Positions 45,418-61,199 of a DNA stretch of 64,000 nucleotides are shown here, in pieces (position 1 is the first letter of the stretch; each line of letters starts with the position of its first letter). The position numbers were made by a program, and so were the translations under genes. The notes under the pieces were generated by a model that saw only the letters and a list, made by a program, of their open reading frames with translations, was not told where the DNA came from and made no database searches. The stretch lies in the UHGV virus genome UHGV-2031204. One strand, 5' to 3'. Source of the DNA: a virus.

Positions 45418-45473
45418 GATTTCAGATATATTTTACTTAAGTGAATAGGGACTGAAGTACCAGTTCAGTCCCT
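45418..45473 (+). promoter_or_regulatory. Conserved promoter-like motif plus hairpin (copy 3 of 4)
   Basis: GATTTCAGATATATTTTACTTAAGTGAA then hairpin GGGACTGAA-GTACCA-GTTCAGTCCC. Confidence 0.45.
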
Positions 45474-45714: not shown

Positions 45715-46449
45715 ATGAAAGAATTATTAGACGATATCTTTACCAATACCAGTTTAGAACTTTCTTCTACGGTGGTTAACGAACTAATAAAACAATCGCA
45801 ACCTGCTAAGTTAGGCGCTGCCAGGGTAGTTAACCCTAAAGATTATCTAGGCTGCGATATCATAGGTGGTACGATCGATGAGTACGCAATTGGTATTTAC
45901 CCCAACTGGGTCTTCTTTGTTCTTAATACCGAAACCGGTGTCATGTTAACCTACACGATGAGTAGTGATGCCGAACACGAAGTTGTAGCGGAACATATTC
46001 GCCACATCGCCAGCACGCCTATCTTTTCCGACGTTACGTTTATTGGGGGAAGCACTATGCTGACGTTATTCTCTTACTTCCCACTGTTTAGACATGGGGT
46101 AGGGTTAATCAAGCATGTAGAAAACCTTCCCGATAACGTAGAGTTATCACTGCTTGGCCCCGGCATCGATCTTTATCCATTAAAAGATAACGGTAAGTTA
46201 TACGGTTTACGTATCTATGTTTCTTGGTTAAAGGGATACCGCGTTATTGAACTGATTGCATCAGACTTAACAAAACAGATCCCAGAAGTAGAAACGATTT
46301 CTAAAGCCACCCACCTGGTTGAGATTAACCCAGACGATCCGTTTTTACAGTACCACAAAGAAATTGCCCTTCGTGGTATCGCGGCCGTAAAAGGGTGGGG
46401 CTGTGCTGAGATTACGAAGGGCTATCTGCTTCTAATTAAAACCGCGTAA
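45715..46449 (+). CDS. Paralog-family protein A (conserved C-terminal GW…LLF module)
   Basis: 244 aa; N-terminal MKELLDDIFTNT resembles 48282 ORF. Confidence 0.55.
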   Translation: MKELLDDIFTNTSLELSSTVVNELIKQSQPAKLGAARVVNPKDYLGCDIIGGTIDEYAIGIYPNWVFFVLNTETGVMLTYTMSSDAEHEVVAEHIRHIASTPIFSDVTFIGGSTMLTLFSYFPLFRHGVGLIKHVENLPDNVELSLLGPGIDLYPLKDNGKLYGLRIYVSWLKGYRVIELIASDLTKQIPEVETISKATHLVEINPDDPFLQYHKEIALRGIAAVKGWGCAEITKGYLLLIKTA

Positions 46450-46478
46450 TTAAGAAAACCGAAAAAGGAGAATATACC

Positions 46479-47033
46479 ATGTTTCAAACTGAACTGAAAA
46501 ATGAAATTATCCAAACCCTTGAAAAGGGCGTAGGCGAACATTTCTTTGTCCGTCCTTATACCGTACTGACCAATACCATTATTCAGCCAGGTGCGATGAT
46601 AGTAGGGGTGAGTGTACAAGCTGTGGAGGAAACCCCACTGCGTCGCAACATCACACGTAAAACCCATATCCCGTTTAGAACAGGTTTTACAGATTACTTT
46701 CAGAGCTTACTGAAAGATAGCGTTTGGAAAACAGGTAGCTTCTTCCACGAAGGGAAGACTTCCACGCTGGTTTATAAAGAGAACACCAAGTATCTGGTCG
46801 ATTTTCTCTTAGCGCGTCAGTATGCTTTCTTTCCAACCCCTACTGACTGCACCACAGACAACCCAGGTAAGTTATTAAACCAAAGCGAAGCCGAGGCACT
46901 CTTTACAAGACTTCGGAATGAGCAGTGCGATGTTGACGACTGGGAAACATTGATCGCGGTCGCTAAAGCCCACGGTTGGTATACCGTACGTAAACTCGGT
47001 CAGCAGTTGTTGTTCTTAGCTTACCCTGCTTAA
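46479..47033 (+). CDS. Paralog-family protein B
   Basis: 184 aa; C-terminal AKAHGWYTVRKLGQQLLFLAYPA. Confidence 0.55.
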   Translation: MFQTELKNEIIQTLEKGVGEHFFVRPYTVLTNTIIQPGAMIVGVSVQAVEETPLRRNITRKTHIPFRTGFTDYFQSLLKDSVWKTGSFFHEGKTSTLVYKENTKYLVDFLLARQYAFFPTPTDCTTDNPGKLLNQSEAEALFTRLRNEQCDVDDWETLIAVAKAHGWYTVRKLGQQLLFLAYPA

Positions 47034-47062
47034 GTAACGAAAAAACCTAAAGGAGAGTAAAA

Positions 47063-48214
47063 ATGCGAAATATTATTTCTAAACCAGGACATGTCAAAAT
47101 CCTAAAAGAACTGATGGACAGATGCTATAATCGGACTTGGTCACTACCAAGCTTAACCATCGAGTCTTCATTACAACGTGAGTTGTTTGGTTATAACTTG
47201 GGCTGTTGTGTACTTACTGAATACAATGAGATTATCGCGCCTGTCGATGTCTGTACTTACGATGAAGAAATTGAAGGTTACAAGTTCGCGGTTTACACAA
47301 ATTGTGGACTAAATTACCGTAAACTCGTTGTTAGGGAAAAGAGTAGCAGCCGGAAGATTATGTTTAAGGTCTTCCCAAGTGGTAAAGTCAGTAATTTATG
47401 TTTTCAGCTTGAGAAAGTGCCCTTTCACGGTGCGGACATTTTAACTAAACCGGAGCTCGCGTTATTAAGCGGGTTAATTGGCTTTGAAGCAAAAACCATC
47501 AAAGTTGAGCAGGAACTTACACGAAACGATTTCGGGTCAACTTGGTACGAAAGTTTCTTCCGCTACGAAATGTTAAGTGATAAAGCTATCAAACTCACTT
47601 ACCGTTCTACCGACGACATCGTTTACCACATTTTAATTAGCGGCGAACCCCACCAGATTATTGAAGTCGAAGGAGAAAAATCCGTGCGTACCTTAAAAGA
47701 TGAATTAACTGATTTTGTTAACAAAATTGATAACGTGGGTATCAGTGAATTATTATTCCCGATTCAACATCCAGAGTTGCTTGACGAGAAATGTGAAAAC
47801 ATGATTATGGCGGTGCATTTACTTCCTGACCATCTTGCTATCTACCGTACACTTTCTAAGAACCAACTTAAAGTGTGGTGTCTGTTAAAAGGTCTTTTAA
47901 CAGAGGCGGGGTGGTCGTGTAGTGTAGATGTTAACTGTGAAGGAGTTGCGTTCTTCATCACAATAGGCAATCGTAGTTTTTCTGTCGATTTACCTACTCG
48001 CAGCTATTACGATTTCTTCCCGACCGCAGAAGGACGTACTGAAAAAGAACCCGCATTACTGCTCAGTGCTGAGGAGTCCAATGCGTTAATGGCGAAACTG
48101 AAGGCGAAAGACGAGAAGCTGGATGCTTTACATCTACCTATAATCGGGAAAGACTACGGTTGGGCTGACGTGCAAAAATACGGCAGTCAGCTGTTGTTTG
48201 TTGCTGACCTCTAA
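47063..48214 (+). CDS. Paralog-family protein C
   Basis: 383 aa; C-terminal GKDYGWADVQKYGSQLLFVADL. Confidence 0.55.
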   Translation: MRNIISKPGHVKILKELMDRCYNRTWSLPSLTIESSLQRELFGYNLGCCVLTEYNEIIAPVDVCTYDEEIEGYKFAVYTNCGLNYRKLVVREKSSSRKIMFKVFPSGKVSNLCFQLEKVPFHGADILTKPELALLSGLIGFEAKTIKVEQELTRNDFGSTWYESFFRYEMLSDKAIKLTYRSTDDIVYHILISGEPHQIIEVEGEKSVRTLKDELTDFVNKIDNVGISELLFPIQHPELLDEKCENMIMAVHLLPDHLAIYRTLSKNQLKVWCLLKGLLTEAGWSCSVDVNCEGVAFFITIGNRSFSVDLPTRSYYDFFPTAEGRTEKEPALLLSAEESNALMAKLKAKDEKLDALHLPIIGKDYGWADVQKYGSQLLFVADL

Positions 48215-48281
48215 TAAGTGAAAATACACTTTCTCTAACTGCCGCGCTTTAGTCGCGGCTTTTGTTAAGAAGGAAATAGAA

Positions 48282-49055
48282 ATGAAAGTCCATTTAGACG
48301 ACATCTTTAAAACCGAACCGTATATGATCGAAGGCCCGCTATCATCACTACTATTTGCCGATAGATTAGATCGTACGCTGCAATTACAATCGGTCGAAAC
48401 TGCACCCGTTGACGATGTAGAGCGTTACGAGCGCATCAACTATACGCGTGGTGAGTATCGTCGCTATAAGCCAAATTCACTAAGCATCAAGCTTTGGAAT
48501 GTGAGCACAGGTAAAGTATTAACTTATCGCGCTGTTGGTAGTTATTACATTCAACAAGCCAAAGAGTGGTTAGAAAAAGTTAAAGAACTGAACTTCGATC
48601 TACTGAGCAAAAAACTGCGCGATCATAACGCCAGTTTGCCGATACGTAATTATTTCTCCACGATTGAAAATAGTCGTTGTTTCGTTTCACGTGAAACCAC
48701 GATATTACCTGGGGATGATGTTCAGACAACACTAAAAGATGTGGTTGTGAAGAAAATCTTTCATGAATCTGAACACGTTGGATTTCGTATCTATTTAACG
48801 CATAAGAGACCATTTACCGTGATTCACGTTGTTACCGCACCCGAAGGCTCAGCGATTATTCGTGAACTTCCTGATGCTCGAGACCGTTGCCCTAATGAGC
48901 CGCTTTATTTAATGTCAGGAACAAAATCAACCGCGTTGATGTCCCGTTACAGCATGTTAGATGTTGTTGACGCTGCTATGAAACTAGGTTGGAAAGAAGT
49001 GCAGCAACATGGTAAACAATTGCTGTTTATTGCCGATGTAAAACTTAATCAATAG
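48282..49055 (+). CDS. Paralog-family protein D
   Basis: 257 aa; C-terminal AMKLGWKEVQQHGKQLLFIADV. Confidence 0.55.
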   Translation: MKVHLDDIFKTEPYMIEGPLSSLLFADRLDRTLQLQSVETAPVDDVERYERINYTRGEYRRYKPNSLSIKLWNVSTGKVLTYRAVGSYYIQQAKEWLEKVKELNFDLLSKKLRDHNASLPIRNYFSTIENSRCFVSRETTILPGDDVQTTLKDVVVKKIFHESEHVGFRIYLTHKRPFTVIHVVTAPEGSAIIRELPDARDRCPNEPLYLMSGTKSTALMSRYSMLDVVDAAMKLGWKEVQQHGKQLLFIADVKLNQ

Positions 49056-49067
49056 TGAGGTGGTACC

Positions 49068-49646
49068 GTGTACCGATTAATAGAAATGCGAAAAGACGTT
49101 TGGTTGGAAAACCTCGTCGATGGGGAGCTTGAGGGAATAGAGCTTTCCTTACCAGAAAGAGCGGACACGGTATTGGTCTTTCTGATAAAACAGGCAGCGA
49201 AGGAACCGGTAGGAATCTTCAGCGTGGACTATAAAGACCCACGAGGGATTCATTTACGGAACATTTGCAGTGGTTTAGAAAGCTTACCGGCTAATCCGTT
49301 CTTAAACTACGCAAAACGTAAACTCCAGCCAGGGCAACATCTCTGGGTAGTTCTAGCGCCTGATACACGCATTATACGTGACGACCAGACTGCGTTTGTC
49401 CAAGCAACGAAAGTCAGTTTGTACAATCCTAATGCGGATCGTACCGATATGCCGTTTACAATCACCTTAGAAGACGATGGAACGCAAGAGGGTATTGAGG
49501 CAATTACGGAATTAGTAAACTCTTATCCGGTAGCATCTATTGAGTTAGAAAACCCAAACCGATTACCGTTGGGTGATTTACTCGAATGGATTGAGCTGAA
49601 TACCGAGTTCCTCATTAACTCCCGGCAGTACCGGTTCGATGTATAA
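49068..49646 (+). CDS. Hypothetical protein
   Basis: 192-aa ORF, GTG start after RBS GAGGTGG. Confidence 0.45.
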   Translation: MYRLIEMRKDVWLENLVDGELEGIELSLPERADTVLVFLIKQAAKEPVGIFSVDYKDPRGIHLRNICSGLESLPANPFLNYAKRKLQPGQHLWVVLAPDTRIIRDDQTAFVQATKVSLYNPNADRTDMPFTITLEDDGTQEGIEAITELVNSYPVASIELENPNRLPLGDLLEWIELNTEFLINSRQYRFDV

Positions 49647-49650
49647 CATC

Positions 49651-49683
49651 GGTGGGGGTAAACCCCCACCTTTTATTTTTTTG
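49651..49683 (+). terminator. Rho-independent terminator
   Basis: GGTGGGGG-TAAA-CCCCCACC plus T-run. Confidence 0.7.
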
Positions 49684-49704
49684 TTCGTTAATATTAAAAA
49701 TAAT

Positions 49705-49747
49705 TTCAGATATATATTACTTAAGTGAGAGTACAAAAGCACTCACT
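49705..49747 (+). promoter_or_regulatory. Conserved promoter-like motif plus 5'-UTR hairpin (copy 4 of 4)
   Basis: TTTCAGATATATATTACTTAAGTGAGAGTACAAAAGCACTCAC; near-duplicate of 13205-13247. Confidence 0.5.
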
Positions 49748-49776
49748 TAACGAAAACCATTTTAGGAGAACTAAAG

Positions 49777-50148
49777 ATGAAAAACGAATTATTCAAAGAC
49801 CCGTTTGTTGTATTAATGATCGTTACTCGCGCTGCCACTAACCCAGAAAACCTGAAACGTTTACTTACTAACGAAGCATACCTTATCGAACAGCGTGACG
49901 CGCAGTTAGCCAAACCACACGCTGAAGGCCAGGCGAAAGACCTTATCTCTATTTTCCGTAACGAAGAATGGCGTAAAAACAACGAGCTGTCCGACAACCT
50001 GACGGTTGCAATTGCAAAACTCTTGACACTGTTCAATCTTGACAAAGACATTAACCAAAGCCTTTCTACAGAAGAGCGTCTGGAAATGATAAGAGGTATC
50101 GGAGATAGTTATACACAGATTAAAGCATTACCCAACACAGTTATTTAA
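49777..50148 (+). CDS. Hypothetical protein
   Basis: 123-aa ORF; RBS TAGGAGAA. Confidence 0.5.
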   Translation: MKNELFKDPFVVLMIVTRAATNPENLKRLLTNEAYLIEQRDAQLAKPHAEGQAKDLISIFRNEEWRKNNELSDNLTVAIAKLLTLFNLDKDINQSLSTEERLEMIRGIGDSYTQIKALPNTVI

Positions 50149-50194
50149 TTTCATAATTTGTGGGAACTTCCCCATAACCCGAAGGAGCATTTCA

Positions 50195-50656
50195 ATGAAA
50201 ACCTTTATCACTTTCTTAATAACTATTTTAACTTTCGGCCTCAATACTGCACACGCCGCTATCAACAGCTGGGAACAAATACAAAACCCTGGCCAGGCAG
50301 TTTACGAAATTGAAGACACCGCCGGAAACGGACTGTCTATCAACTGTGACACTGAAACTGCGAATCGCAAATTTTACGGTCGCATGGTTTGGTATTACGG
50401 GGAACCCGTAGGTGCAACTAACGCTGAAGATAACACGATGGATATTGTCGTAAACGGCAAGACCTATAACATCCCTACCGTGGACGGTAGTGACAAAGCA
50501 GAACACGCTTGGGTTGCTTTCGTTAATGCTATCGGTAATGCCAAAACTTTCAGTGTGAGTATCAATGGTAACGATGCCGCTAACTTTACCGTAGAAGGCG
50601 AACGTCTGTCTGAAACTTTCTTCCAGAACTGTGGACACACCCGTCCTAACAAATAA
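50195..50656 (+). CDS. Small secreted protein (signal peptide, 2 Cys)
   Basis: MKTFITFLITILTFGLNTAHA-AINSW; RBS GAAGGAG. Confidence 0.6.
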   Translation: MKTFITFLITILTFGLNTAHAAINSWEQIQNPGQAVYEIEDTAGNGLSINCDTETANRKFYGRMVWYYGEPVGATNAEDNTMDIVVNGKTYNIPTVDGSDKAEHAWVAFVNAIGNAKTFSVSINGNDAANFTVEGERLSETFFQNCGHTRPNK

Positions 50657-50684
50657 GTATTAATCTTTTTTAGAGTGCGTGAAA

Positions 50685-51071
50685 ATGAATATCAGAACTA
50701 TACTTTATACTATCATTATTTTCTGTGCGGTCGGAATTACTGGCACTTATGCTTTCGGTGATTCAGATGTCCGTTATTACGAACCGGCTCCTGACTCACC
50801 GATTATCAACCCGGATGAGACGCCTACGTTAATGCGCAGTTTCGGTAAACTGCAAGTTTATCGTTTAGTGCGTGGTGAAACCTGTACGGGTTTACTCATT
50901 GCTGACACCCGTGCACAAGTCTACCAACGTCTAACCGATATCGCCTGCGAACAACCAAAAGTAATGTCAGTTAGTATCCATCCGCTATCAGTTGGTAACT
51001 ATACCGCTGTGGACTTCTTTCACAACGCCGAATTAATCGGACGCGTTACCTTAAATCGTCCTGCCGAATAA
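50685..51071 (+). CDS. Small secreted protein (signal peptide, 2 Cys)
   Basis: MNIRTILYTIIIFCAVGITGTYA-FG; track start GTG 50679. Confidence 0.55.
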   Translation: MNIRTILYTIIIFCAVGITGTYAFGDSDVRYYEPAPDSPIINPDETPTLMRSFGKLQVYRLVRGETCTGLLIADTRAQVYQRLTDIACEQPKVMSVSIHPLSVGNYTAVDFFHNAELIGRVTLNRPAE

Positions 51072-51089
51072 TCTAAAGGAGTAGTTACA

Positions 51090-51575
51090 ATGAAACGTTT
51101 ACATACACTGATGTTCTTTCTGGTTTTCTTGTTTATCGGTGCCACGCCAACTGTAGATGCGGCCTCCGTAGACGAATTGCTTACCTGCGATGGAAACGCT
51201 TGGGAAGGTCAGCCAAATGCGTGCCCAAACATCAACGACTTGTACGATACCGATAAGTCGTTTAAAGCCGTTGTTGATAAAACACTAGACCCCGTAGGGC
51301 TGGATGGTATGTTCGGCTCTAAAGGTTACATGGATGGCCCTGGCGGTAACATGTATCCGGTAAACATCAACAACAAAATCTGGATTGAAAGCGGCGGTTG
51401 TAAAGCTAACGCTTGTGGTTGGGAATACATCGTAACGCTATACAACCCACACACTAAGAAACTCGTCGGCTATTACTACAACATCGACCCCGGTTACCTG
51501 ATTTGGTTCGGTGATATCGGTGTTGCCGAATTCGCTTACCTGGTTAAGAAATACGTAGAACAATCTAAATACTAA
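51090..51575 (+). CDS. Small secreted protein (signal peptide, 4 Cys)
   Basis: MKRLHTLMFFLVFLFIGATPTVDA; RBS AAAGGAG. Confidence 0.6.
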   Translation: MKRLHTLMFFLVFLFIGATPTVDAASVDELLTCDGNAWEGQPNACPNINDLYDTDKSFKAVVDKTLDPVGLDGMFGSKGYMDGPGGNMYPVNINNKIWIESGGCKANACGWEYIVTLYNPHTKKLVGYYYNIDPGYLIWFGDIGVAEFAYLVKKYVEQSKY

Positions 51576-51586
51576 GGACTTTTATC

Positions 51587-51997
51587 ATGAAAACTATCAT
51601 TAATACTCTTCTCATTGCAATGGCTGTTCTGTTCTCTGTCAACGCTACAGCAAAAACAATACAGTTGCCAGACAATATTAAGTACGTCAATAGCACCGAT
51701 GATTTCTATTGTACGGAAATTGACGGCTTGTACTGTCAGGCAAAGAGCCTGTTTAAATACAAAGGTAGCAGATACGTATTCATCGTTGAGCAAGGTGGTG
51801 CCTGGTGCTACGACAGCCCAATGTCCGTACTCAACCTCGAAACGTGGAAGGCTCAGCGTCTCGAATACAACGACAAACGTCTGTGCTCTGGTAATAACAA
51901 ACCATTCTTCGAAGTCGTAGATGGTGTGCCAATGGTAGGGATATTAGACACTTCGGAAAAACCTATCGTTGTAGCTATGGATAAACTTAAAATTTAA
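51587..51997 (+). CDS. Small secreted protein (signal peptide, 4 Cys)
   Basis: MKTIINTLLIAMAVLFSVNATA. Confidence 0.6.
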   Translation: MKTIINTLLIAMAVLFSVNATAKTIQLPDNIKYVNSTDDFYCTEIDGLYCQAKSLFKYKGSRYVFIVEQGGAWCYDSPMSVLNLETWKAQRLEYNDKRLCSGNNKPFFEVVDGVPMVGILDTSEKPIVVAMDKLKI

Positions 51998-52007
51998 GGA
52001 GTAACTC

Positions 52008-52397
52008 ATGCGTCTCGTCTGCGTTTTAGCATTCTTCTTCTCCCTGAGTGTAGCAGCATCTACCCAAGTTAACGATTTACTGCTAACCCCAAACAACAAT
52101 ACCGATTATCAGTACAATCCTCCGGGGTTTGAAGTTTGCGAAGTCGGTGAAACAATCTGCCAAGAAGTCGGCGCAGACGGGCGCTATATTCTGGTAAAAG
52201 CTGACGGTGGCACAATGTGTCCCGCAGGTTATTACTTTCTGCTCGATTCCGTCGCAAGAGAGGTTCTTCCTATCACCACGAAAACGTGCGACCCTACCGT
52301 TGTCTTAACTCTCGCTAAAAGTAAATCTCGCGACCGTTATCTGATCGTTATCGAAGAACGGGGCAAGATGGCGGGTGCTATTGAATTAGATCATTGA
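52008..52397 (+). CDS. Small secreted protein (signal peptide, 4 Cys)
   Basis: MRLVCVLAFFFSLSVAAS; RBS TAAGGAG. Confidence 0.6.
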   Translation: MRLVCVLAFFFSLSVAASTQVNDLLLTPNNNTDYQYNPPGFEVCEVGETICQEVGADGRYILVKADGGTMCPAGYYFLLDSVAREVLPITTKTCDPTVVLTLAKSKSRDRYLIVIEERGKMAGAIELDH

Positions 52398-52407
52398 GTG
52401 TAGTCTT

Positions 52408-52434
52408 GACCCCGGTACGTCCGGGGTCCTTTTT
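52408..52434 (+). terminator. Rho-independent terminator
   Basis: GACCCCGG-TACGT-CCGGGGTC then CTTTTT. Confidence 0.65.
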
Positions 52435-52463
52435 ACGACATGTTTACCTAAAGGAGTATTAAA

Positions 52464-52940
52464 ATGCAATTATCTAACGTTTACCAAGCTGCGCAATTTC
52501 ATCATGACCTGTCGGCTAAACCTGAACAAATTCGCCACAACTTAACGGTGGCCTGGAAACTGCTACGTATCGCCGAAGCCTCGCGCCTTAACGATCAGTC
52601 GACGATTATCGAAACGGTGCGCACACTACATCCAGTCGACCTGGAAACAATCTGGACCTTTGATTTAACCCGAATTTATCACCGTCGTTTTAATGCGGCA
52701 GTTGATGCAATCCGTCCTTACTTTCACCACCTGCGAACAACACGCGAAAATGATACCGCACTTGAGTGGGTGTTGGTACAAAGCGTATGGAGCGACTACA
52801 TTTATCTCCTTTCTTTAGAGACGGGTGAATGTATCGTTGCTAACGAAGTTTTTTCAAGTAACGCAGAAATGTATCGTTCCTACGCGACGATTAAAGGTGA
52901 AACACAACCTATTTTATCACTCACGCACTTAGGGCTGTAA
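52464..52940 (+). CDS. Hypothetical protein
   Basis: 158-aa ORF; RBS AAAGGAG. Confidence 0.5.
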   Translation: MQLSNVYQAAQFHHDLSAKPEQIRHNLTVAWKLLRIAEASRLNDQSTIIETVRTLHPVDLETIWTFDLTRIYHRRFNAAVDAIRPYFHHLRTTRENDTALEWVLVQSVWSDYIYLLSLETGECIVANEVFSSNAEMYRSYATIKGETQPILSLTHLGL

Positions 52941-52948
52941 TTAGCCCG

Positions 52949-52976
52949 GCCCCGTTTACTCGGGGCTTCTTTTTTT
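52949..52976 (+). terminator. Rho-independent terminator
   Basis: GCCCCG-TTTACT-CGGGGC plus T7. Confidence 0.65.
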
Positions 52977-52996
52977 GATCTAAAAGGAAAGACCAG

Positions 52997-53605
52997 ATGA
53001 ACGAAATTACATTAGTTCGTTTTCTTGAAGCGATGCAAAATGCAGAGCGCTTTTCGCACGCGCCTTTATTCATTGACTTAATGGAAGAAGAAGTAGAGGG
53101 CTTCCTGGCATACCCTCGCTTACGGGAGTATTTTAAACGTAAAACACCGACTGCTTACGAAAAGTTGGTTTACGCGCTTGAGAACAGTACAACATTGTTA
53201 ACGTCGCCTTTTAAGGCGTTGGAGGCTTTAGACCCGGCTGGTACCACAAGTATCCCACAACGTGTTGTGTTCTACTATATCGACCACGATCGAATTAAAG
53301 CCGATGTTGTTAACTGGATCTCTGAAAACGCAGTTCCTGAAACACGCACTTTTAATCTCTGTCCTGTAGAAGAAGGATGGAAGGTCGGTAGCCACTATTC
53401 TTACCCGTACCAATCCATTAAATCGCCGTTTTTATACCCGGTTTATCTGGATGATGTTACACCTGGAAATTGTATCCCGGTAACAAATCTGATCTGTACA
53501 TTGACGATGGAAGTCTTAGCCACAAAGGCGGGACAGGTTTGGGTAGAAAACACGAAGAACGTCGATTATTGGACTTCAATGGGTTATCACCTGTACACCA
53601 AATAA
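52997..53605 (+). CDS. Hypothetical protein (no Mre11/SbcD phosphoesterase motifs)
   Basis: 202-aa ORF; RBS AAAGGAAAG. Confidence 0.5.
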   Translation: MNEITLVRFLEAMQNAERFSHAPLFIDLMEEEVEGFLAYPRLREYFKRKTPTAYEKLVYALENSTTLLTSPFKALEALDPAGTTSIPQRVVFYYIDHDRIKADVVNWISENAVPETRTFNLCPVEEGWKVGSHYSYPYQSIKSPFLYPVYLDDVTPGNCIPVTNLICTLTMEVLATKAGQVWVENTKNVDYWTSMGYHLYTK

Positions 53606-53610
53606 CGTTT

Positions 53611-53653
53611 GGGAGAACCTTCGGGTTCTCCCTTTCTTTATTTTTTTCTTTTT
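53611..53653 (+). terminator. Rho-independent terminator
   Basis: GGGAGAACC-TTC-GGGTTCTCCC plus T-rich tract. Confidence 0.7.
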
Positions 53654-53683
53654 ACACCACACTCCGTCTTTATGGAGGTGGGT

Positions 53684-56188
53684 ATGCTAAAAGTTGAACG
53701 CATTATACTCAAAGGTTTTACGGGGATGGGATTACATGAAATTGAAACTTTCGATTTCACTATCCAGTCTCCAACAACAATTATCCTAGGTGGGAACGGT
53801 TGCGGGAAAACCAGTCTACTGTCTGTATTCTTACCCTTAGCACCGGCTAAAACTGAATTCAGAGACGGCGGTTCTTACACGAACTACTGTTTAGTTGGCG
53901 ATCAACGCTATCGTTTCAAAGTTGCCCGTAAAGGCAACTCTTTGGTTTGCGATATTGAGAACCTGACCACGGGGACAAAGATCGTCGAACAAGGCAATGC
54001 GAAAGTCTACAACTCCCGTGTTGAAGAAATCACGGGTATTACGAAAGAGATTAAAGAATTATTAAATGGTGAGGTGTTGTTAACTGATGCGGGAACCGAA
54101 CTACGTCGCAAGTGGTTTTACCGTTTAAGTACCTCTGACCTCACTTACGCGTTAGGGTTTTATCAACGTTTACGTAAAAACCTTACTGCCTTAAATGGGG
54201 GGATTGAAATCACCAGCCGTAAGATCGCCGAATTACGGACGCGTGTTATTGAGAACGAGGAAGAACGTCAGCAATTAGCGACGAGATTAAAAGGTTTGGA
54301 ATCGGATTTACGTGAACTGAACCGAGAAATCGAACAGTTGCCAGGATTAAATCGCGGCGTCACCATCGAAACAATCCAAGCGTCATTAAACAGCTTGGGT
54401 CCAACCATCGACGCAATATTACAACATCGTGGTGGTCTGCCTACTGATGAACAGATACAGGTCGCACGACAAAACGAGGCGACCGCCCGCGAAGCCGTCG
54501 TGTCTACTGAAACAGAGGTATCGATGTTGAATAAAGACTTGTCGCTATTGATGGATGAGTCGACACGACAAGACTACCTGATGCGGAATCACGAAGGTCT
54601 CAAGAATACACTGGCACGTTTACGTGAGTTACTTACCAAATGGGACACCGAGCATCTCTTTCCGGGTTTATTTAACGACAACGTCAATTTAGACCAACTT
54701 CGTGCGGCTACCGATGCGCGTGTCTGGGGGCAACGGTTAGGAACAACACTGGACGCAATTCATTCAACCGAAAAACTCAATGTTTTGGAAGAACGGCTTC
54801 TGGTGATGGATCAAAAAACCGCAGGGTTGCGGGATAGACTCCAGCGAGTGGAGAACGTTTTACAGAATTTAAATCACGAACGTAATCACTACTTAGAAAC
54901 AGCGGAAGTGGATTGCCCGCAGTGTCGGTTTAAGTTCCGTCCTGGTGTTACGCGTTCTTTACCTGAACTTGAGTCTTCGATTCGCGGACAACAACAGCAG
55001 CGCACGGAACTGCAAACGCAGTTAGAGACCTTATTACGCGATCGTGTTGAATTAGAATCTGATGTAACTTATATGCGGCAGGTTCGTGAGATTGTACTGA
55101 CGTATTCAAAGGACCCGGTATTGAGCATGTTCTTTAAGCGTTTGCAAGAACGTAACGTTTTCACAGAATCACGCGAGCAGTTCGGGAGTCTATGCGCAGC
55201 GTTTGACAGCGAGTTGTACTCTGCTATTGAGTACCATGAAACCCGTCAACGGTTAGTGAAGGCGGAAAAAGAATGGCAGGATGCCGTGGCGGCCGTTGGT
55301 AACGTCGATGGTGCTTTACAACAAAAAATCGCTTTCCAACAGTCACGATTAGGTAAAGCCACAGAGATGCTCTCAATGCGTCGTAGAGAGCACGAACTGG
55401 CTAACACGACACTTACCTATCTGGTGAATGTTAAACGTGCTGTAGATGATTTCAGTGCGTTATTCGAACGGTTAGAGAGTGATGTTAAGGTTACGTTGAC
55501 AAATACAGTCGTCGAGGAACTCTTACGTACACGAGAAGGGAAGCTGGATGCTTTTACAACCGCACGCGAACGTTATCGTCAAATGGAAAATGAATTGAAC
55601 CAGCTCAACAGTTTGGAACGCGAACTTGCTGACTTACAAGCCCAGCAGTTCAATAACAAACTGATGATTCAAGCCTTCTCGCCAGAAAAGGGTGTACTTA
55701 GAAAGTATTTTTACAACGCTATCGTTAGAATCACAGAGTTAATGACGCGTTATATCGAACAGGTCTGGACGTACCCCATGCGTGTTATGCCTTGTGATCT
55801 CACTGACGGCGATTTGGATTATACTTTTCCTGTCCAGCTAAAAACGCATCCTGAGCCTGTTCCTGACGTGCGTAAAGGGTCAAAGGCGCAGCGTGCGATA
55901 TTTAATCTGATGTTCAGACTGACTGCGTACAAAGCGCTGAAGTTGCATCAGTTTCCGTTGCTTTTGGACGAGCCTTCGGAGGGTATGGATGAGGAGCACC
56001 GTAACAACCTGGTCGGCTTTATTAAAACGTTAGCAAACTCAGGAGATTTTTCACAACTGTTGGTAGTCTCCCACGAAGCTGAGGTTCATTCTAAACTTAA
56101 TGAAGCATCGTACTGTGTCATCGAACCGGAAGGGGTGACATTACCTGCGGTGTATAACGAAGGAGTAAAAATTGTTTATGCAAACTGA
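53684..56188 (+). CDS. SbcC/Rad50-like SMC-family ATPase with coiled coil and CxxC zinc hook
   Basis: Walker A GGNGCGKTS; central CPQC; C-terminal LLLDEPSEGMD and VVSHE; ATG 53684 after RBS GGAGGTG (track start 53609 lies in the terminator). Confidence 0.75.
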   Translation: MLKVERIILKGFTGMGLHEIETFDFTIQSPTTIILGGNGCGKTSLLSVFLPLAPAKTEFRDGGSYTNYCLVGDQRYRFKVARKGNSLVCDIENLTTGTKIVEQGNAKVYNSRVEEITGITKEIKELLNGEVLLTDAGTELRRKWFYRLSTSDLTYALGFYQRLRKNLTALNGGIEITSRKIAELRTRVIENEEERQQLATRLKGLESDLRELNREIEQLPGLNRGVTIETIQASLNSLGPTIDAILQHRGGLPTDEQIQVARQNEATAREAVVSTETEVSMLNKDLSLLMDESTRQDYLMRNHEGLKNTLARLRELLTKWDTEHLFPGLFNDNVNLDQLRAATDARVWGQRLGTTLDAIHSTEKLNVLEERLLVMDQKTAGLRDRLQRVENVLQNLNHERNHYLETAEVDCPQCRFKFRPGVTRSLPELESSIRGQQQQRTELQTQLETLLRDRVELESDVTYMRQVREIVLTYSKDPVLSMFFKRLQERNVFTESREQFGSLCAAFDSELYSAIEYHETRQRLVKAEKEWQDAVAAVGNVDGALQQKIAFQQSRLGKATEMLSMRRREHELANTTLTYLVNVKRAVDDFSALFERLESDVKVTLTNTVVEELLRTREGKLDAFTTARERYRQMENELNQLNSLERELADLQAQQFNNKLMIQAFSPEKGVLRKYFYNAIVRITELMTRYIEQVWTYPMRVMPCDLTDGDLDYTFPVQLKTHPEPVPDVRKGSKAQRAIFNLMFRLTAYKALKLHQFPLLLDEPSEGMDEEHRNNLVGFIKTLANSGDFSQLLVVSHEAEVHSKLNEASYCVIEPEGVTLPAVYNEGVKIVYAN

Positions 56189-56357
56189 TTGGTTCCGTCG
56201 TTTTATGGACGCGGCGGGGTTTGGTTTCATGTCCATTCTAGCGGTTCTTTATGTCATGTTTTGCGTGGTGATGATTTTATGGGTAGTTTCATCTTATCTG
56301 ATTAAACTATCGTGGGGTTCAATTTGGCGTCAACGCGAATGCGAATGGCGGAATTAG
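56172..56357 (+). CDS. Small membrane protein (61 aa)
   Basis: Hydrophobic core FGFMSILAVLYVMFCVVMILWVVSSYLI; overlaps SbcC-like stop. Confidence 0.45.
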   Translation: MFMQTDWFRRFMDAAGFGFMSILAVLYVMFCVVMILWVVSSYLIKLSWGSIWRQRECEWRN

Positions 56358-56367
56358 GAGAGGGAAT

Positions 56368-56466
56368 ATGGTTGTAGGGGTTCTGTTAACACTTGGCTCG
56401 TTGTGGTTAATTGGTAAAGGTTTAAACTGGCTGATTAAACGTCACCGTTGGGCATTCGAAGATTAA
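56368..56466 (+). CDS. Tiny single-TM protein (32 aa)
   Basis: Strong RBS AGGAGAGGG; MVVGVLLTLGSLWLIGKGLNWLIKRHRWAFED; not in track. Confidence 0.4.
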   Translation: MVVGVLLTLGSLWLIGKGLNWLIKRHRWAFED

Positions 56467-56523
56467 CCACCCAAATAATCCAGAAGATACCCTCCGGTGT
56501 GAGGGTATTGATAGGAGCAGAAA

Positions 56524-56652
56524 ATGACCACGATAAACGCTACGAATGTAGCGATATCCGCACTATACGACGCGGAACTTTCATGGGGTGGGTTAATAAT
56601 CACCACAGCCATATTAGCCGCTGCGGCTTTCGTCATCGCGCGTTGGTTTTAA
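56524..56652 (+). CDS. Tiny single-TM protein (42 aa)
   Basis: RBS AGGAGCAG; …GGLIITTAILAAAAFVIARWF; not in track. Confidence 0.4.
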   Translation: MTTINATNVAISALYDAELSWGGLIITTAILAAAAFVIARWF

Positions 56653-56683
56653 TTTTACTTTTTTGCGTCTCTAAGGTTTGCAA

Positions 56684-57127
56684 ATGGAAATTTATTTGTT
56701 GAACGCATCTTCTAAAGTCGGCGAACGACAAGCTGCCGATTTACTCAAACTGCACTACCGTTACTTAGACCACCAGGCCACGTTACTGAAAATCAAAATG
56801 TCGGTGCCGAAGTTAAATGCGCGACAGCTGATCGAAGGTAACTGCATAGTTCTGGTGTATCAGGATGATGTCGCGGTAGGATACTGTAGTTATCGGAATC
56901 GTAACGGTTCACTTAAGATACGTTCGGTATACGTGCTCCCAGACTATCGTCAACGGGGTGTAATGAAAGAGATTTTCAAAGCAATTGCAGCTGATGAGGT
57001 TTTCGGCGAGATTGTTACTGGCATGTATGCGAAATGTAAAGAAGCAAAAGAGTATTTCATCCGACGCGGCTATCAAGCGGTTTACTCACGCGATCGTGAG
57101 TGGGTCGATTTTAGCAAAACATTCTAA
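56684..57127 (+). CDS. GNAT-family N-acetyltransferase-like protein
   Basis: VYVLPDYRQRGVMKEIF resembles the GNAT acetyl-CoA-binding motif. Confidence 0.55.
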   Translation: MEIYLLNASSKVGERQAADLLKLHYRYLDHQATLLKIKMSVPKLNARQLIEGNCIVLVYQDDVAVGYCSYRNRNGSLKIRSVYVLPDYRQRGVMKEIFKAIAADEVFGEIVTGMYAKCKEAKEYFIRRGYQAVYSRDREWVDFSKTF

Positions 57128-57193
57128 AAACAATAAAGCTCTCTTGGCGTACCTCACTATGAGTGTGAGAAATTTACGTCAGGAGAGCTAATT

Positions 57194-57439
57194 ATGTTAA
57201 AATCGTACGGAGTGGGTGGTTTGGATACGAGTATTTGTTGGAAGGAATACGAACGTGCGAAAGCGTTCTTACAGCATCCCAATGTAGGGACAATAGGTAA
57301 GGTCTGTTTCGGCAAACCTTCACTGACGGCTTGTATCCAAGGGGCTTTAGGGACGTTGCCACCCGAATCACATTTCGAGCCTGAGGAGAATATGAATGTT
57401 CACAGAGAACCCATCAATTTACGGTATACCGTTGAATGA
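57194..57439 (+). CDS. Hypothetical protein
   Basis: 81-aa ORF; RBS AGGAGAG. Confidence 0.45.
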   Translation: MLKSYGVGGLDTSICWKEYERAKAFLQHPNVGTIGKVCFGKPSLTACIQGALGTLPPESHFEPEENMNVHREPINLRYTVE

Positions 57440-57764
57440 AATTGATATTCTACAAATTTGTTATCAGTGTGGTGACTTCGGTAAGACGCAGGTAACGCCG
57501 TTAGTTAAGCTTTTAGGTTACTTGCCTGAAATCGAGTTGCCTTTTGTTAAACCTAGCTTAGTTCGTCGTGCATCGTGTCGTGAAGCTTATTTGCTCTGGA
57601 AACACAATATTGCGGTAGAGAAGGTCTGGGATCGTATGAACGATCATCAGTTCCGTGAGCAGGTCGTACATACGCTTAACTTGGCACTGACTATGCAGCG
57701 CCTGGGCTTACAACACGAAGGTTTAGAAGCGGCGGTCAAGCAATGGATTACGAAAAATCGATAA
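57396..57764 (+). CDS. Hypothetical protein
   Basis: 122-aa ORF; RBS GAGGAGAA; overlaps previous ORF. Confidence 0.45.
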   Translation: MFTENPSIYGIPLNEIDILQICYQCGDFGKTQVTPLVKLLGYLPEIELPFVKPSLVRRASCREAYLLWKHNIAVEKVWDRMNDHQFREQVVHTLNLALTMQRLGLQHEGLEAAVKQWITKNR

Positions 57765-57788
57765 TGGGTAAAACATATATCGCTATAC

Positions 57789-58349: not shown

Positions 58350-58449
58350 ATATTATCATTAGGGCACACAACAAAGGAGTATTAGCTGTCCGCGCCGTCA
58401 TTTCGTCTTACGGAATACGGAAATGTATAAATCCAACTGGAGAAACAAA

Positions 58450-59148
58450 ATGTTTCGTATCTTCTTTCTTTTACTGGTAACACTTTTCGCGTTTAACGCA
58501 CAGGCGTCAACGTCAACGCCACATTCTAAACATCAGCGTGAGTTTACACAAATCCAACATCGGTTCGAAAAAGTCAGTCCGTTAATTGTGGAAATCTCAC
58601 GAAAGCAAGGCGTTGATCCTAAGCTGATGATTACGCTGATTTATCGTGAATCGCGTTTTGATCCCAAGGCTTACAACAAAAGCTCACGAGCACACAGCCT
58701 GGTACAGATGCTTCCAAGTACCAAGCGTAATCTGCTAAGGCTTTATGGAAAAGAATTAGGTCTTAGTCAGAACGCCGATTTGTATAATCCGCGTAATGCT
58801 GTTTTGCTGGCTGCCGCGTATGTTAAACATCTTGAAAAGGGGTTAACCAAACGACTCAAACGCAAGCCCACCATGGCTGAAGTTGCGTTAGCTTACCACT
58901 GGGGTGAAAGTGGCGCTCACACGCGAATCAAAAGCAAATCTCGAGCAGCACAACGAGAAATGGCAGGCTTTATGAAAGACGCCTCGTTCTATAGCGCGAA
59001 AATCGATGTGCCTGTTGTTGTGGGCTCGGCCCCACGTCAGCTTGCGTTTGCGAAGAAAACACCACGTCAGATTCAATTGGCGGAAGTTAGTAAAATTTGG
59101 GATACGATAAACACGAGTTTTCCAATCAATAGAGGAGTTACCCTTTGA
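58450..59148 (+). CDS. Secreted lytic transglycosylase (SLT domain)
   Basis: Signal peptide MFRIFFLLLVTLFAFNAQA; YRESRFDPKAYNKSSRAHSLVQMLPST matches the SLT motif; RBS GGAGAAAC before ATG 58450. Confidence 0.7.
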   Translation: MFRIFFLLLVTLFAFNAQASTSTPHSKHQREFTQIQHRFEKVSPLIVEISRKQGVDPKLMITLIYRESRFDPKAYNKSSRAHSLVQMLPSTKRNLLRLYGKELGLSQNADLYNPRNAVLLAAAYVKHLEKGLTKRLKRKPTMAEVALAYHWGESGAHTRIKSKSRAAQREMAGFMKDASFYSAKIDVPVVVGSAPRQLAFAKKTPRQIQLAEVSKIWDTINTSFPINRGVTL

Positions 59149-59654: not shown

Positions 59655-59660
59655 CCTCTA

Positions 59661-59698
59661 CCCCTTACCCTATACGGAGTAAGGGGTACTTTTATTTT
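59661..59698 (+). terminator. Rho-independent terminator
   Basis: CCCCTTACCC-TATACGGAG-TAAGGGG plus T-run. Confidence 0.65.
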
Positions 59699-59720
59699 CA
59701 TTCCCTAAAGGAGCAGAGTT

Positions 59721-61189: not shown

Positions 61190-61199
61190 TTTAAGTCCC

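What the first reader, a model, noticed from the sequence alone, without database searches (positions are those of the whole stretch)
50195..52397. Cluster of five small secreted, cysteine-containing proteins
Five consecutive genes of 129-161 aa each begin with a typical signal peptide and carry 2 or 4 Cys in the mature part, consistent with disulfide-bonded periplasmic proteins. Five in tandem is unusual for a virulent phage and suggests periplasmic anti-defence, receptor masking or enzyme inhibition.
Basis: partly seen in the sequence, partly recalled or inferred. Interest (0 to 1): 0.6.

Follow-up and report, generated by a model that had tools for sequence, protein, structure and literature searches.

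The report
Jumbo-phage operon of exported cell-wall-enzyme inhibitor candidates
A giant Salmonella/E. coli-type phage carries a conserved operon of five small exported proteins; one is a relative of the bacterial lysozyme inhibitor Ivy, and the others belong to families found next to, or fused with, Ivy-like domains in bacterial islands and plasmids, which points to control of cell-wall-cutting enzymes in the periplasm.

Summary
Five consecutive + strand genes (50195-52397) each encode a Sec-type signal peptide followed by a mature domain with 2, 2, 4, 4 and 4 Cys. Only 7 of 67 ORFs in the window pass the same signal test, and a run of five has p<=1.4e-4.

The window is an SPN3US/Asesino-like jumbo phage, and SPN3US gp180-183 are the orthologous cluster. 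The five proteins are not five unrelated genes:
- p2, p4 and p5 are paralogues of one very rare all-beta family with no solved relative.
- p3 is a divergent Ivy-family (lysozyme inhibitor) protein. Its disulfide-closed C-x4-C loop is in register with Ivy's CKPHDC.
- p1 belongs to the E. coli YkfB/YfjT family.

Enterobacterial plasmids and chromosomes encode a fusion of a p3-like Ivy domain with a p5-like domain. On the one locus examined, the fusion occupies the slot held by YkfB in CP4-type islands.

The genes sit between two terminators behind a repeated AT-rich promoter-like element that is conserved upstream of the cluster in other genera. This is the pattern described for jumbo-phage early promoters.

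Best reading (about 45%): an early-expressed periplasmic battery that inhibits peptidoglycan-cleaving enzymes, meaning the lysins of superinfecting phages and/or the phage's own Sec-exported SLT endolysin. No activity has been tested.

The parts
49651..49680 (+). Intrinsic terminator closing the upstream gene (8-bp GC-rich stem plus T-run). It marks the upstream boundary of the transcription unit.
   Evidence: sequence read
49707..49720 (+). Promoter-like 14-mer CAGATATATATTAC, a probable early (virion-RNAP) promoter core. Exact copies lie at 8820 and 13208, and a 1-mismatch copy at 45423.
   Evidence: The same element lies upstream of the orthologous cluster, or of the gene that leads it, in SPN3US, SPLA5c, Huxley, Asesino and L003-L005. 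Review PMC7598289 says conserved AT-rich ~10-nt motifs upstream of operons are the early promoters of RNAP-encoding jumbo phages. The timing is inferred, not measured.
49723..49748 (+). Conserved 5'-leader hairpin (AAGTGAG...CTCACTT) that follows the promoter-like element in all three exact copies.
   Evidence: alignment; sequence
49777..50148 (+). First gene of the unit (123 aa, no signal peptide, phrog_27024). It is variable: absent from the closest relatives L003-L005, where the promoter sits directly before p1.
50195..50656 (+). p1: exported 153-aa protein of the YkfB/YfjT family (2 conserved Cys).
   Evidence: tblastn to YkfB and plasmid homologues, E 1e-8 to 6e-6; end-to-end alignment with both Cys conserved; hhalign 98.0%, E 3e-13, 122 columns; close homologues carry precomputed Pfam PF27224.1
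50679..51071 (+). p2: exported protein, subfamily A of the p2/p4/p5 family (2 Cys). Its likely true start is the ATG at 50685. Orthologue of SPN3US gp180 and Asesino gp201.
   Evidence: A vs C profiles 97.1%, E 6e-11
51090..51575 (+). p3: exported, divergent Ivy-family protein (4 Cys). The C104-KANA-C109 loop is in register with Ivy's CKPHDC. It occupies the slot held by a B'-type paralogue in SPN3US (gp181) and Asesino (gp202).
   Evidence: no homologue in GenBank phages
51587..51997 (+). p4: exported protein, subfamily B (4 Cys). Orthologue of SPN3US gp182 and Asesino gp203.
   Evidence: B vs C profiles 97.8%, E 1e-12
52008..52397 (+). p5: exported protein, subfamily C (4 Cys). Orthologue of SPN3US gp183 and Asesino gp204. 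The AF2 model has a seven-strand all-beta core.
52408..52436 (+). Intrinsic terminator 11 nt after the p5 stop codon (8-bp stem, 7 GC pairs, T-run). It marks the downstream boundary of the unit.
   Evidence: sequence
58423..59148 (+). Candidate target, not part of the operon: a basic SLT-domain lytic transglycosylase (endolysin) with a cleavable Sec-type signal (likely start M10 at 58450: MFRIFFLLLVTLFAFNAQA|S). The signal is conserved in Asesino gp218 and the SPLA5c transglycosylase.
   Evidence: Pfam SLT 54.4 bits, E 1e-14; annotations

Best explanation
The five genes form one transcription unit, probably early, that sends a set of small acidic, disulfide-bonded proteins into the periplasm of the infected cell. 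There they bind and inhibit peptidoglycan-cleaving enzymes (lysozyme-like muramidases and lytic transglycosylases). What is shown: the genes, the signal-peptide architecture and its conservation, the operon boundaries, the paralogy of p2/p4/p5, the Ivy-family relationship of p3, the YkfB/YfjT relationship of p1, and the fusion and positional links between these families in bacterial mobile elements. What is inferred: that export really occurs; that the promoter is early; that p3 keeps an inhibitory function although its loop reads CKANAC rather than CKPHDC; that p1, p2, p4 and p5 share p3's kind of function (guilt by fusion and position); and the identity of the targets. The most likely targets are the virion-borne wall-piercing enzymes of superinfecting phages, which would be superinfection exclusion and protection from lysis-from-without, as T4 Spackle does with an unrelated fold. 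A second possible target is the phage's own Sec-exported SLT endolysin before lysis.
For: (1) Export: n/h/c signal plus an even number of conserved Cys in all five proteins, kept in 34/34 and 39/42 relatives and absent from 0/9 non-family neighbours. (2) p3 and Ivy: NCBIfam Ivy model E 1.3e-3. tblastn E 2e-10 at 95% coverage to plasmid proteins annotated as Ivy family. That plasmid protein passes Pfam Ivy's gathering score, 23.9 vs 21. The p3 profile vs its N-domain gives 98.6-98.8%, E 1e-15/1e-16. A profile of p3, its L004 orthologue and the fusion's N-domain vs E. coli plus Salmonella Ivy gives 93%, E 3e-7 over 80 columns with the C-x4-C loop in register; p3 plus the orthologue alone give 89%, E 2e-6, and pairwise BLASTP gives E 2e-5. 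(3) Rosetta-stone link: the 311-316-aa 'Ivy family' proteins (a cluster of 178 members, with named members from Klebsiella, Serratia, Salmonella, E. coli, Enterobacter and Citrobacter) carry a C-terminal domain that aligns with the p5 subfamily over 86 columns with all four Cys in register (hhalign 74-83%, E 9e-6 to 3e-5; hmmsearch 23-25 bits). (4) Same slot: in the module GTPase-DUF932-WYL-YpjK-YafY/YfjS-[YkfB/YfjT]-DUF905-antirestriction, the one fusion locus examined sits where YkfB sits, and p1 is a YkfB/YfjT relative (98%, E 3e-13). (5) Operon with a conserved promoter-like element of the type reported as early in jumbo phages. (6) A plausible target exists: a basic SLT endolysin with a conserved cleavable signal, while all five mature proteins are net acidic. 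(7) Literature: Ivy is a periplasmic lysozyme inhibitor, and Ivy paralogues inhibit the lytic transglycosylase MltB in vitro (PMC10139938). T4 Spackle is an early periplasmic disulfide-bonded inhibitor of the tail lysozyme that gives superinfection exclusion (PMC7677548).
Confidence: 0.45

Rival explanations
1. Own-lysis control. The exported proteins hold the phage's own Sec-exported SLT endolysin inactive in the periplasm until lysis. This would be a proteinaceous alternative to SAR tethering or antiholin control.
For: The endolysin has an SLT domain and a cleavable Sec signal conserved in Asesino and SPLA5c, which also carry the cluster. It is strongly basic, while p1-p5 are acidic. Ivy-type proteins can inhibit lytic transglycosylases in vitro (PMC10139938).
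Against: The operon carries the AT-rich promoter-like element typical of early genes, and it is about 6 kb and several terminators away from the endolysin. Five different inhibitors for one enzyme seems excessive. No release mechanism is evident. Related families occur in bacterial islands and plasmids that have no such endolysin.
Confidence: 0.15
2. The proteins are periplasmic but act on something other than muralytic enzymes. Options include blocking receptors or DNA entry (Imm/Llp-like exclusion), interfering with periplasmic or envelope defence, or manipulating envelope-stress signalling (Cpx/Rcs). In this reading p3 is an Ivy-fold protein recruited for a new ligand.
For: p3's loop has lost the catalytic-site-binding His. 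The p2/p4/p5 fold matches no known inhibitor. YafY overproduction activates Cpx, and its function is unknown (PMC6538781). E. coli Ivy is also annotated as a periplasmic chaperone. CP4-type islands and plasmids that carry the related genes also carry anti-phage genes such as abpAB, rnlAB and Lit.
Against: There is no positive evidence for any specific alternative target. The only family with a known biochemical function points to lysozyme/transglycosylase inhibition. The PADLOC scan was negative.
Confidence: 0.25
3. The N-termini are uncleaved signal anchors. The proteins would then be membrane-tethered, for example in the inner membrane or the early phage infection vesicle, rather than soluble periplasmic proteins.
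For: No formal signal-peptide predictor was run. p2's uncharged N-terminal stretch is about 21 residues.
Against: The hydrophobic cores are 13-15 residues with AxA motifs 3-7 residues downstream, conserved across divergent orthologues. Even, conserved Cys counts fit an oxidising compartment. Even a signal anchor would place the domains in the periplasm.
Confidence: 0.1
4. Chance ORFs, or a meaningless coincidence of hydrophobic N-termini.
For: None beyond the absence of experimental data.
Against: The orthologues are conserved and syntenic across at least four phage genera. PHROG hits reach E 1e-31 to 1e-40. Clustering has p<=1.4e-4. Exact copies are present on many ~225-kb contigs.
Confidence: 0.01

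Closest known systems
Ivy (inhibitor of vertebrate lysozyme, Pfam PF08816; E. coli b0220)
   Same: p3 is Sec-exported and of similar size. It aligns with Ivy over about 80 residues, including the beta-hairpin whose disulfide-closed C-x4-C loop is Ivy's inhibitory element; the Lys after the first Cys and the Gly after the second are kept.
   Different: The loop is CKANAC (CKSNAC in relatives, CEQGNC in the plasmid fusions) rather than CKPHDC. An extra N-terminal Cys pair is shared with the plasmid fusion proteins. p3 is below curated thresholds on its own. It is encoded by a virulent jumbo phage, and no homologue was found in 50,697 GenBank phage records.
T4 Spackle (gp61.3)
   Same: Concept: an early phage gene product, exported with a cleaved signal, small and disulfide-bonded, that inhibits a muralytic enzyme in the periplasm to give superinfection exclusion (PMC7677548).
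   Different: Spackle is an alpha-helical bundle that binds beside the active-site cleft. p3 is Ivy-like and p5 is all-beta. There is no sequence relationship. Here there are five proteins from three families, and their function is unproven.
E. coli K-12 cryptic-prophage pairs YafY-YkfB (CP4-6) and YfjS-YfjT (CP4-57)
   Same: p1 is a YkfB/YfjT homologue (98%, E 3e-13). The pair of a YafY-type protein next to a YkfB-type protein resembles p1 next to p2. All are exported proteins of unknown function with conserved Cys.
   Different: YafY/YfjS are lipoproteins (lipobox), whereas the phage proteins have type-I signals. Homology between YafY/YfjS and the p2/p4/p5 family is only tentative (33-75%), and Pfam YfjS_YafY does not hit the phage proteins.
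311-316-aa 'Ivy family c-type lysozyme inhibitor' fusion proteins of Enterobacterales (e.g. WP_228706714.1)
   Same: The N-domain is the closest annotated relative of p3 (E 2e-10; 98.6%). The C-domain aligns with the p5 subfamily with four Cys in register.
   Different: This is one polypeptide in bacteria versus separate genes in the phage. It is encoded on plasmids and chromosomes; the one locus examined (L011) lies in a CP4-like module. It is uncharacterised experimentally as far as the library shows.
MliC/PliC, PliI and PliG lysozyme inhibitors
   Same: Small, exported, mostly beta proteins that insert a loop into a lysozyme active site (as summarised in PMC7677548).

Membership tests
Ivy (PF08816 / NF007443), for p3 | Scores above the curated family threshold | tested here: not met
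   Pfam gave no hit at E<=1. NCBIfam NF007443 gave 18.6 bits, E 1.3e-3, against a cutoff of 180 for this equivalog model.
Ivy (PF08816 / NF007443), for p3 | Homology to bona fide Ivy proteins by profile comparison or transitive search | tested here: met
   hhalign of a profile of p3, its L004 orthologue and the fusion's N-domain vs E. coli plus Salmonella Ivy: 93%, E 3e-7, 80 columns; p3 plus the orthologue alone: 89%, E 2e-6; BLASTP E 2e-5. tblastn E 2e-10 to plasmid proteins annotated as Ivy family, one of which passes Pfam Ivy's gathering score. p3 vs that N-domain: 98.6-98.8%.
Ivy (PF08816 / NF007443), for p3 | Disulfide-closed loop CKPHDC at the hairpin tip (His contacts the lysozyme active site) | tested here: inconclusive
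   C-x4-C and the Lys are conserved and in register, but P-H-D is replaced (CKANAC). The architecture is kept; the key His is not.
Ivy (PF08816 / NF007443), for p3 | Periplasmic location via a Sec signal | tested here: met
   MKRLHTLMFFLVFLFIGATPTVDA|AS; heuristic only.
Ivy (PF08816 / NF007443), for p3 | Ivy fold; inhibition of C-type lysozyme or lytic transglycosylase | not testable with these tools
Biochemistry is required.
YkfB/YfjT family, for p1 | Full-length homology with the conserved Cys pair and a signal peptide | tested here: met
   hhalign 98.0%, E 3e-13, 122 columns. The global alignment has W, Y, INC and the C-terminal Cys conserved. tblastn E 1e-8 to 6e-6. Close homologues carry Pfam PF27224.1; that model is not in the local Pfam copy, so its name is unknown to me.
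YfjS/YafY lipoproteins (PF20494), for p2/p4/p5 | Match to the Pfam YfjS_YafY domain | tested here: not met
   No PF20494 hit for p2, p4, p5 or distant relatives at E<=1, whereas YafY scores 215 bits.
YfjS/YafY lipoproteins (PF20494), for p2/p4/p5 | Remote homology by profile-profile comparison | tested here: inconclusive
   The p5 subfamily vs YafY gave 75% (E 2.5e-5) with a small profile and 33% (E 4.5e-4) with a larger one.
YfjS/YafY lipoproteins (PF20494), for p2/p4/p5 | Lipobox (lipoprotein signal) | tested here: not met
   No L-x-x-C lipobox is present; the signals are type I with AxA sites.
T4 Spackle | Alpha-helical bundle fold; sequence homology | tested here: not met
   The p5 model is all-beta. 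p3 is Ivy-like by sequence. No PHROG or Pfam link was found. The resemblance is functional analogy only.
PliG / MliC / PliC / PliI | Sequence or fold similarity | tested here: not met
Spanins / holins / antiholins (lysis cassette) | Lipobox o-spanin, type-II i-spanin with coiled coil, or multi-TM holin, placed next to the endolysin | tested here: not met
   No lipobox and no second TM segment. The cluster is about 6 kb from the endolysin and separated from it by terminators.
Known anti-phage defence proteins (PADLOC) | Match to a PADLOC model | tested here: not met
   No hit at E<=1 for any of the five.

The most novel reading that the evidence does not exclude
Three families of small exported proteins form an unrecognised mobile toolkit of periplasmic 'anti-muralytic immunity'. 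The families are Ivy-like, YkfB/YfjT-like and the p2/p4/p5 family (possibly related to YafY/YfjS). The toolkit would be shared by jumbo phages, CP4-type genomic islands and large plasmids, and would block invaders (phages, and perhaps conjugation or T6SS lysins) at the step where they must cut peptidoglycan. In the phage it would be an early superinfection-exclusion module. In bacteria it would be a defence module, and this would give a function to four orphan E. coli K-12 genes (ykfB, yfjT, yafY, yfjS).
Probability: 0.2. Interest if true: 0.8.

Novelty: new variant of a known kind. Interest (0 to 1): 0.62.

Why it matters
Exported proteins of nucleus-forming jumbo phages appear almost unstudied: a 2026 review of jumbo-phage biology does not mention the periplasm, signal peptides or superinfection. 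If the operon does inhibit wall-cutting enzymes, three things follow. It would be a second, structurally unrelated example of the T4 Spackle strategy. It would be, as far as these searches show, the first phage-borne Ivy-type protein (none was found in the GenBank phage collection or in the searchable literature). It would also suggest how a phage with a long infection cycle and a Sec-exported transglycosylase keeps the cell wall intact until lysis. The same families sit in E. coli K-12 cryptic prophages and in large plasmids of clinical Enterobacterales as genes of unknown function, so a result in the phage would carry over to them. All of this is directly testable with SPN3US gp180-183, a tractable model.

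Tried and rejected
(1) PliG link. A weak NCBIfam 'lysozyme inhibitor' (PRK13792) hit of YafY was followed up with the real E. coli PliG. hhalign was <3% for all families, and there was no PDB sequence support. Rejected.
(3) p1 structure. Only close homologues were admissible, and the model came out at pLDDT 52, which is unusable. No fold search was done on it.
(4) p3 structure. Not attempted, because no admissible alignment existed.
(5) Diversifying selection. Per-gene identity to the closest relatives shows the whole region is mosaic. p1's 75% in L003 marks a recombination boundary, and p3's 65% in L004/L005 is matched by other genes, so there is no cluster-specific hotspot.
(6) Giant-protein hits of the family profile fall in PKD/Ig-like repeats and were judged spurious.
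(7) Direct PDB sequence searches with p1, p3, the p3 profile and the family profile found no relevant structure.
(8) Pfam and PADLOC scans of the five proteins gave nothing above threshold. NCBIfam gave only p3's sub-threshold Ivy hit.
(9) Literature searches found nothing on SPN3US gp180-183, E. coli YkfB, or phage-encoded Ivy.
(10) The sigma-70 promoter scan was no better than shuffles.
(11) No virion-associated muralytic domain was found by Pfam among the window's large ORFs.
Full report
OBSERVATION. The five ORFs are present exactly as described, on the + strand: p1 50195-50656 (153 aa), p2 50679-51071 (130 aa from GTG; database orthologues begin at the ATG at 50685), p3 51090-51575 (161 aa), p4 51587-51997 (136 aa) and p5 52008-52397 (129 aa). 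They are separated by only 10-22 nt, and most have a Shine-Dalgarno-like sequence upstream. Each begins with a K/R-containing n-region, a 13-15-residue hydrophobic core and an AxA-type site (AHA|A, TYA|F, VDA|A, ATA|K, SVA|A/AAS|T). None has a lipobox or a second hydrophobic segment. After removal of the leader they carry 2, 2, 4, 4 and 4 Cys.

As a control I applied one crude Sec-signal rule to all 67 non-overlapping ORFs >=80 aa in the window. Seven pass: these five, a lipobox lipoprotein (20198-20689, - strand) and the endolysin. A run of five among seven positives has p<=1.4e-4. No formal predictor such as SignalP was available, so the export claim rests on this heuristic and on conservation. 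The architecture is kept in 34/34 family members from related loci and in 39/42 database relatives, and in 0/9 non-family neighbours.

WHAT GENOME THIS IS. There is no near-identical DNA in GenBank phages. However, the SbcC/SMC-like protein at 53609-56188 is 57-69% identical to those of Erwinia phages Asesino and phiEaH2 and of Salmonella SPN3US-like phages. These are phiKZ-related jumbo phages. Exact copies of p1 and p3 occur on ~225-kb contigs in many Salmonella, Shigella and E. coli isolate assemblies. A 222-kb 'plasmid' of Enterobacter ludwigii is a close relative.

The cluster is syntenic. Small genes of this kind precede the same two genes and the SMC gene in every relative examined: Asesino gp201-204, SPN3US gp180-183, Huxley gp192-194, ChrisDB gp203-205 and Wellington gp199-202. 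Nothing about SPN3US gp180-183 was found in the searchable literature.

THREE FAMILIES, NOT FIVE UNRELATED GENES. p2, p4 and p5 are paralogues. A 25-sequence alignment of mature domains has two invariant Cys columns, and a second Cys pair is present in subfamilies B, B' and C. Profile-profile comparison gives A(p2)-C(p5) 97.1%, E 6e-11, and B(p4)-C 97.8%, E 1e-12 (earlier, shallower profiles are).

The family is very rare. An exhaustive HMMER search of 1.84 billion cluster representatives found 44 hits at E<=1e-3, nearly all 50-137 aa. The few giant hits lie in PKD/Ig-like repeats and look spurious.

p3 IS AN IVY-FAMILY PROTEIN. In SPN3US and Asesino the second slot holds a B'-type paralogue (gp181, gp202). 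In this phage that slot holds p3, which has no PHROG and no homologue in 50,697 GenBank phage records.
- p3 gives a sub-threshold hit to the NCBIfam Ivy model (E 1.3e-3).
- By tblastn it matches plasmid genes annotated 'Ivy family c-type lysozyme inhibitor' at E 2e-10 over 95% of its length.
- One such protein (WP_228706714.1) passes Pfam Ivy's gathering score, 23.9 vs 21.
- The p3 profile matches its N-domain at 98.6-98.8%, E 1e-15/1e-16.
- Against E. coli Ivy plus a canonical Salmonella plasmid Ivy, a profile of p3, its L004 orthologue and the fusion's N-domain gives 93%, E 3e-7 over 80 columns. p3 plus that orthologue alone give 89%, E 2e-6. Pairwise BLASTP to E. coli Ivy gives E 2e-5.

In these alignments p3's C104-KANA-C109 lies exactly on Ivy's C-KPHD-C. 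That is the disulfide-closed loop known from the literature to enter the lysozyme active site (summarised in PMC7677548). The Cys pair, the Lys and the following Gly are kept; Pro-His-Asp are not. So p3 is a family member by remote homology, but it fails curated thresholds on its own and has a non-canonical loop. Its target may therefore differ from C-type lysozyme.

p1 IS A YkfB/YfjT-FAMILY PROTEIN. tblastn finds YkfB of the E. coli CP4-6 prophage and homologues on large conjugative plasmids (E 1e-8 to 6e-6). The alignment is end-to-end with both Cys conserved. Profile comparison with YkfB, YfjT and a plasmid homologue gives 98.0%, E 3e-13 over 122 columns. Close homologues of p1 carry a precomputed Pfam domain, PF27224.1, that is not in the local Pfam copy. 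No functional study of E. coli YkfB was found.

LINKS BETWEEN THE FAMILIES OUTSIDE PHAGES. First, the 311-316-aa 'Ivy family' proteins are fusions. They form a cluster of 178 members, with named members from Klebsiella, Serratia, Salmonella, E. coli, Enterobacter and Citrobacter. After the p3-like domain and a Pro/Ala-rich linker comes a domain that aligns with the p5 subfamily over 86 columns with all four Cys in register (hhalign 74% with a small profile and 82.8%, E 9e-6, with a larger one; hmmsearch 23-25 bits).

Second, there is a positional link. In CP4-type islands and plasmids the module reads GTPase-DUF932-WYL-YpjK-YafY/YfjS lipoprotein-YkfB/YfjT-DUF905-antirestriction-RadC-toxin/antitoxin. 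On the Klebsiella plasmid, the one fusion locus I examined, the fusion protein sits between WYL and DUF905, which is the YkfB position.

Third, the YafY/YfjS lipoproteins next to YkfB/YfjT may themselves be distant relatives of the p5 subfamily (CPAG-YYFLLD vs CEDGSYYYLVD, both core Cys aligned). The support is unstable, 75% with one profile and 33% with a richer one, and Pfam YfjS_YafY does not hit the phage proteins. I treat this third link as tentative.

Together the first two links say that relatives of p1, p3 and p5 are used together or interchangeably in bacteria. That is the basis for extending p3's predicted activity to the other proteins, and it is an inference.

TRANSCRIPTION UNIT. 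Strong intrinsic terminators lie at 49651-49680 and at 52408-52436, the latter 11 nt after p5. Between them are a variable non-exported gene (49777-50148, absent from L003-L005) and the five exported genes.

Downstream of the first terminator lies CAGATATATATTAC (49707-49720), followed by a conserved leader hairpin. The exact 14-mer recurs at 8820 and 13208, and with one mismatch at 45423. All copies are on the + strand. The three exact copies lie 62-66 nt before a start codon, with about 70 nt of flanking similarity. An exact 14-mer is expected about 5e-4 times by chance in 128 kb. The same element lies upstream of the orthologous cluster, or of the gene that leads it, in SPN3US, SPLA5c, Huxley, Asesino and L003-L005, with a degenerate copy in ChrisDB.

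A review of jumbo-phage RNA polymerases states that a conserved AT-rich motif of about 10 nt upstream of operons marks early, virion-RNAP promoters in these phages, while middle and late promoters cannot be found bioinformatically (PMC7598289). I therefore infer early expression. This was not measured.

CANDIDATE TARGETS. The phage's endolysin (58423-59148) is an SLT-domain lytic transglycosylase (Pfam 54.4 bits). It has a cleavable Sec-type signal that is conserved in Asesino gp218 and the SPLA5c transglycosylase (MFR...FNA.A|S). It is strongly basic (41 K+R vs 16 D+E), whereas all five mature proteins are net acidic.

According to PMC10139938, Ivy is a potent C-type lysozyme inhibitor, P. 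aeruginosa Ivy paralogues inhibit MltB in vitro, and E. coli Ivy inhibits MltA/B only weakly. T4 Spackle shows that a phage can use an early, exported, disulfide-bonded protein to inhibit the tail lysozyme of superinfecting phages (PMC7677548). No virion lysin was identified inside this window.

MECHANISM AND RIVALS. My best reading (about 0.45) is an early periplasmic battery of inhibitors of peptidoglycan-cleaving enzymes. The primary role would be exclusion of superinfecting phages and protection of the wall during a long infection. Restraint of the phage's own exported endolysin is a possible second role; as a stand-alone rival I give it about 0.15.

A periplasmic role unrelated to muralytic enzymes remains quite possible (about 0.25). 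Candidates are receptor or entry blocking, interference with envelope-stress signalling, or anti-defence. The reasons are that four of the five proteins have no biochemical anchor and that p3 has lost the canonical His. Uncleaved signal anchors (about 0.1) would still place the domains in the periplasm. An artefact is excluded.

NOVELTY. Ivy, YkfB/YfjT and phage-encoded periplasmic lysozyme inhibition (Spackle) are all known, so this is not categorically new. Three things appear to be new. One is an Ivy-type gene in a phage. Another is the recognition that a conserved, probably early, operon of SPN3US-like jumbo phages encodes only exported proteins. The third is the link between that operon and orphan gene pairs and fusions in E. 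coli cryptic prophages and enterobacterial plasmids. I rate it a new variant of a known kind, interest 0.62.

Noticed in passing
window 8820-8833, 13208-13221, 45423-45436, 49707-49720 (+ strand): A repeated promoter-like element, CAGATATATATTAC, followed by a conserved leader hairpin. The three exact copies share about 70 nt and lie 62-66 nt before a start codon. It is probably the early-promoter consensus of this phage group, since the same element is present in SPN3US, Asesino and Huxley.
   Followed up: partly
window 58423-59148 (+); likely start 58450: The SLT-domain endolysin carries a cleavable Sec-type signal (not SAR-like), conserved in Asesino gp218 and the SPLA5c transglycosylase. 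How an exported transglycosylase is kept harmless until lysis is unexplained.
   Followed up: partly
window 59721-60200 (+) and 59145-59654 (+): Downstream of the endolysin, a 159-aa protein with strongly hydrophobic N-terminal segments is a holin candidate. The 169-aa gene overlapping the endolysin stop is conserved (Asesino gp219) but has no family hit.
   Followed up: no
window 20198-20689 (- strand): A 163-aa protein with a classic lipobox (VFSLAG|C). It is the only predicted lipoprotein in the window and has no Pfam family. It could be an o-spanin-like or exclusion lipoprotein.
   Followed up: no
window 49777-50148 (+): The first gene of the operon (123 aa, not exported, phrog_27024) is absent from the three closest relatives (L003-L005). 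It is an indel directly behind the promoter.
   Followed up: partly
window 45715-61799 vs L003-L005: Strong mosaicism among close relatives. For example, 47063-48214 is 41% identical in L003 but 72% in L004; p1 is 75% in L003 while p2-p5 are 94-99%. Recombination boundaries fall inside and beside the cluster.
   Followed up: yes
L012 (E. coli plasmid pZ0117EC0013-3) 2441-3028: A p3-like Ivy-type gene interrupted by stop codons, an apparent pseudogene, on a small IncF plasmid. Intact 60-64% identical copies lie on other enterobacterial 'plasmid' records, of which at least one (NZ_CP134650.1, 222 kb) is really a jumbo-phage genome.
   Followed up: partly
L023 (E. coli K-12 CP4-57) and L014 (pNDM-CIT): The YafY/YfjS-YkfB/YfjT gene pair lies in islands that also hold known anti-phage genes: abpAB and rnlAB in CP4-57, and a Lit-family exclusion protein and TerB in pNDM-CIT.
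   Followed up: no
window 57789-58349 (+) and 23205-24527 (- strand): A Macro-domain protein (ADP-ribose binding/hydrolase type) lies just upstream of the endolysin, and a radical-SAM protein lies in the - strand block. Both are unusual accessory functions that were not examined further.
   Followed up: no
window 148-4770 (+): A 1540-aa tail-fibre protein with a phage tail-fibre repeat and a C-terminal S74 intramolecular chaperone domain.
   Followed up: no
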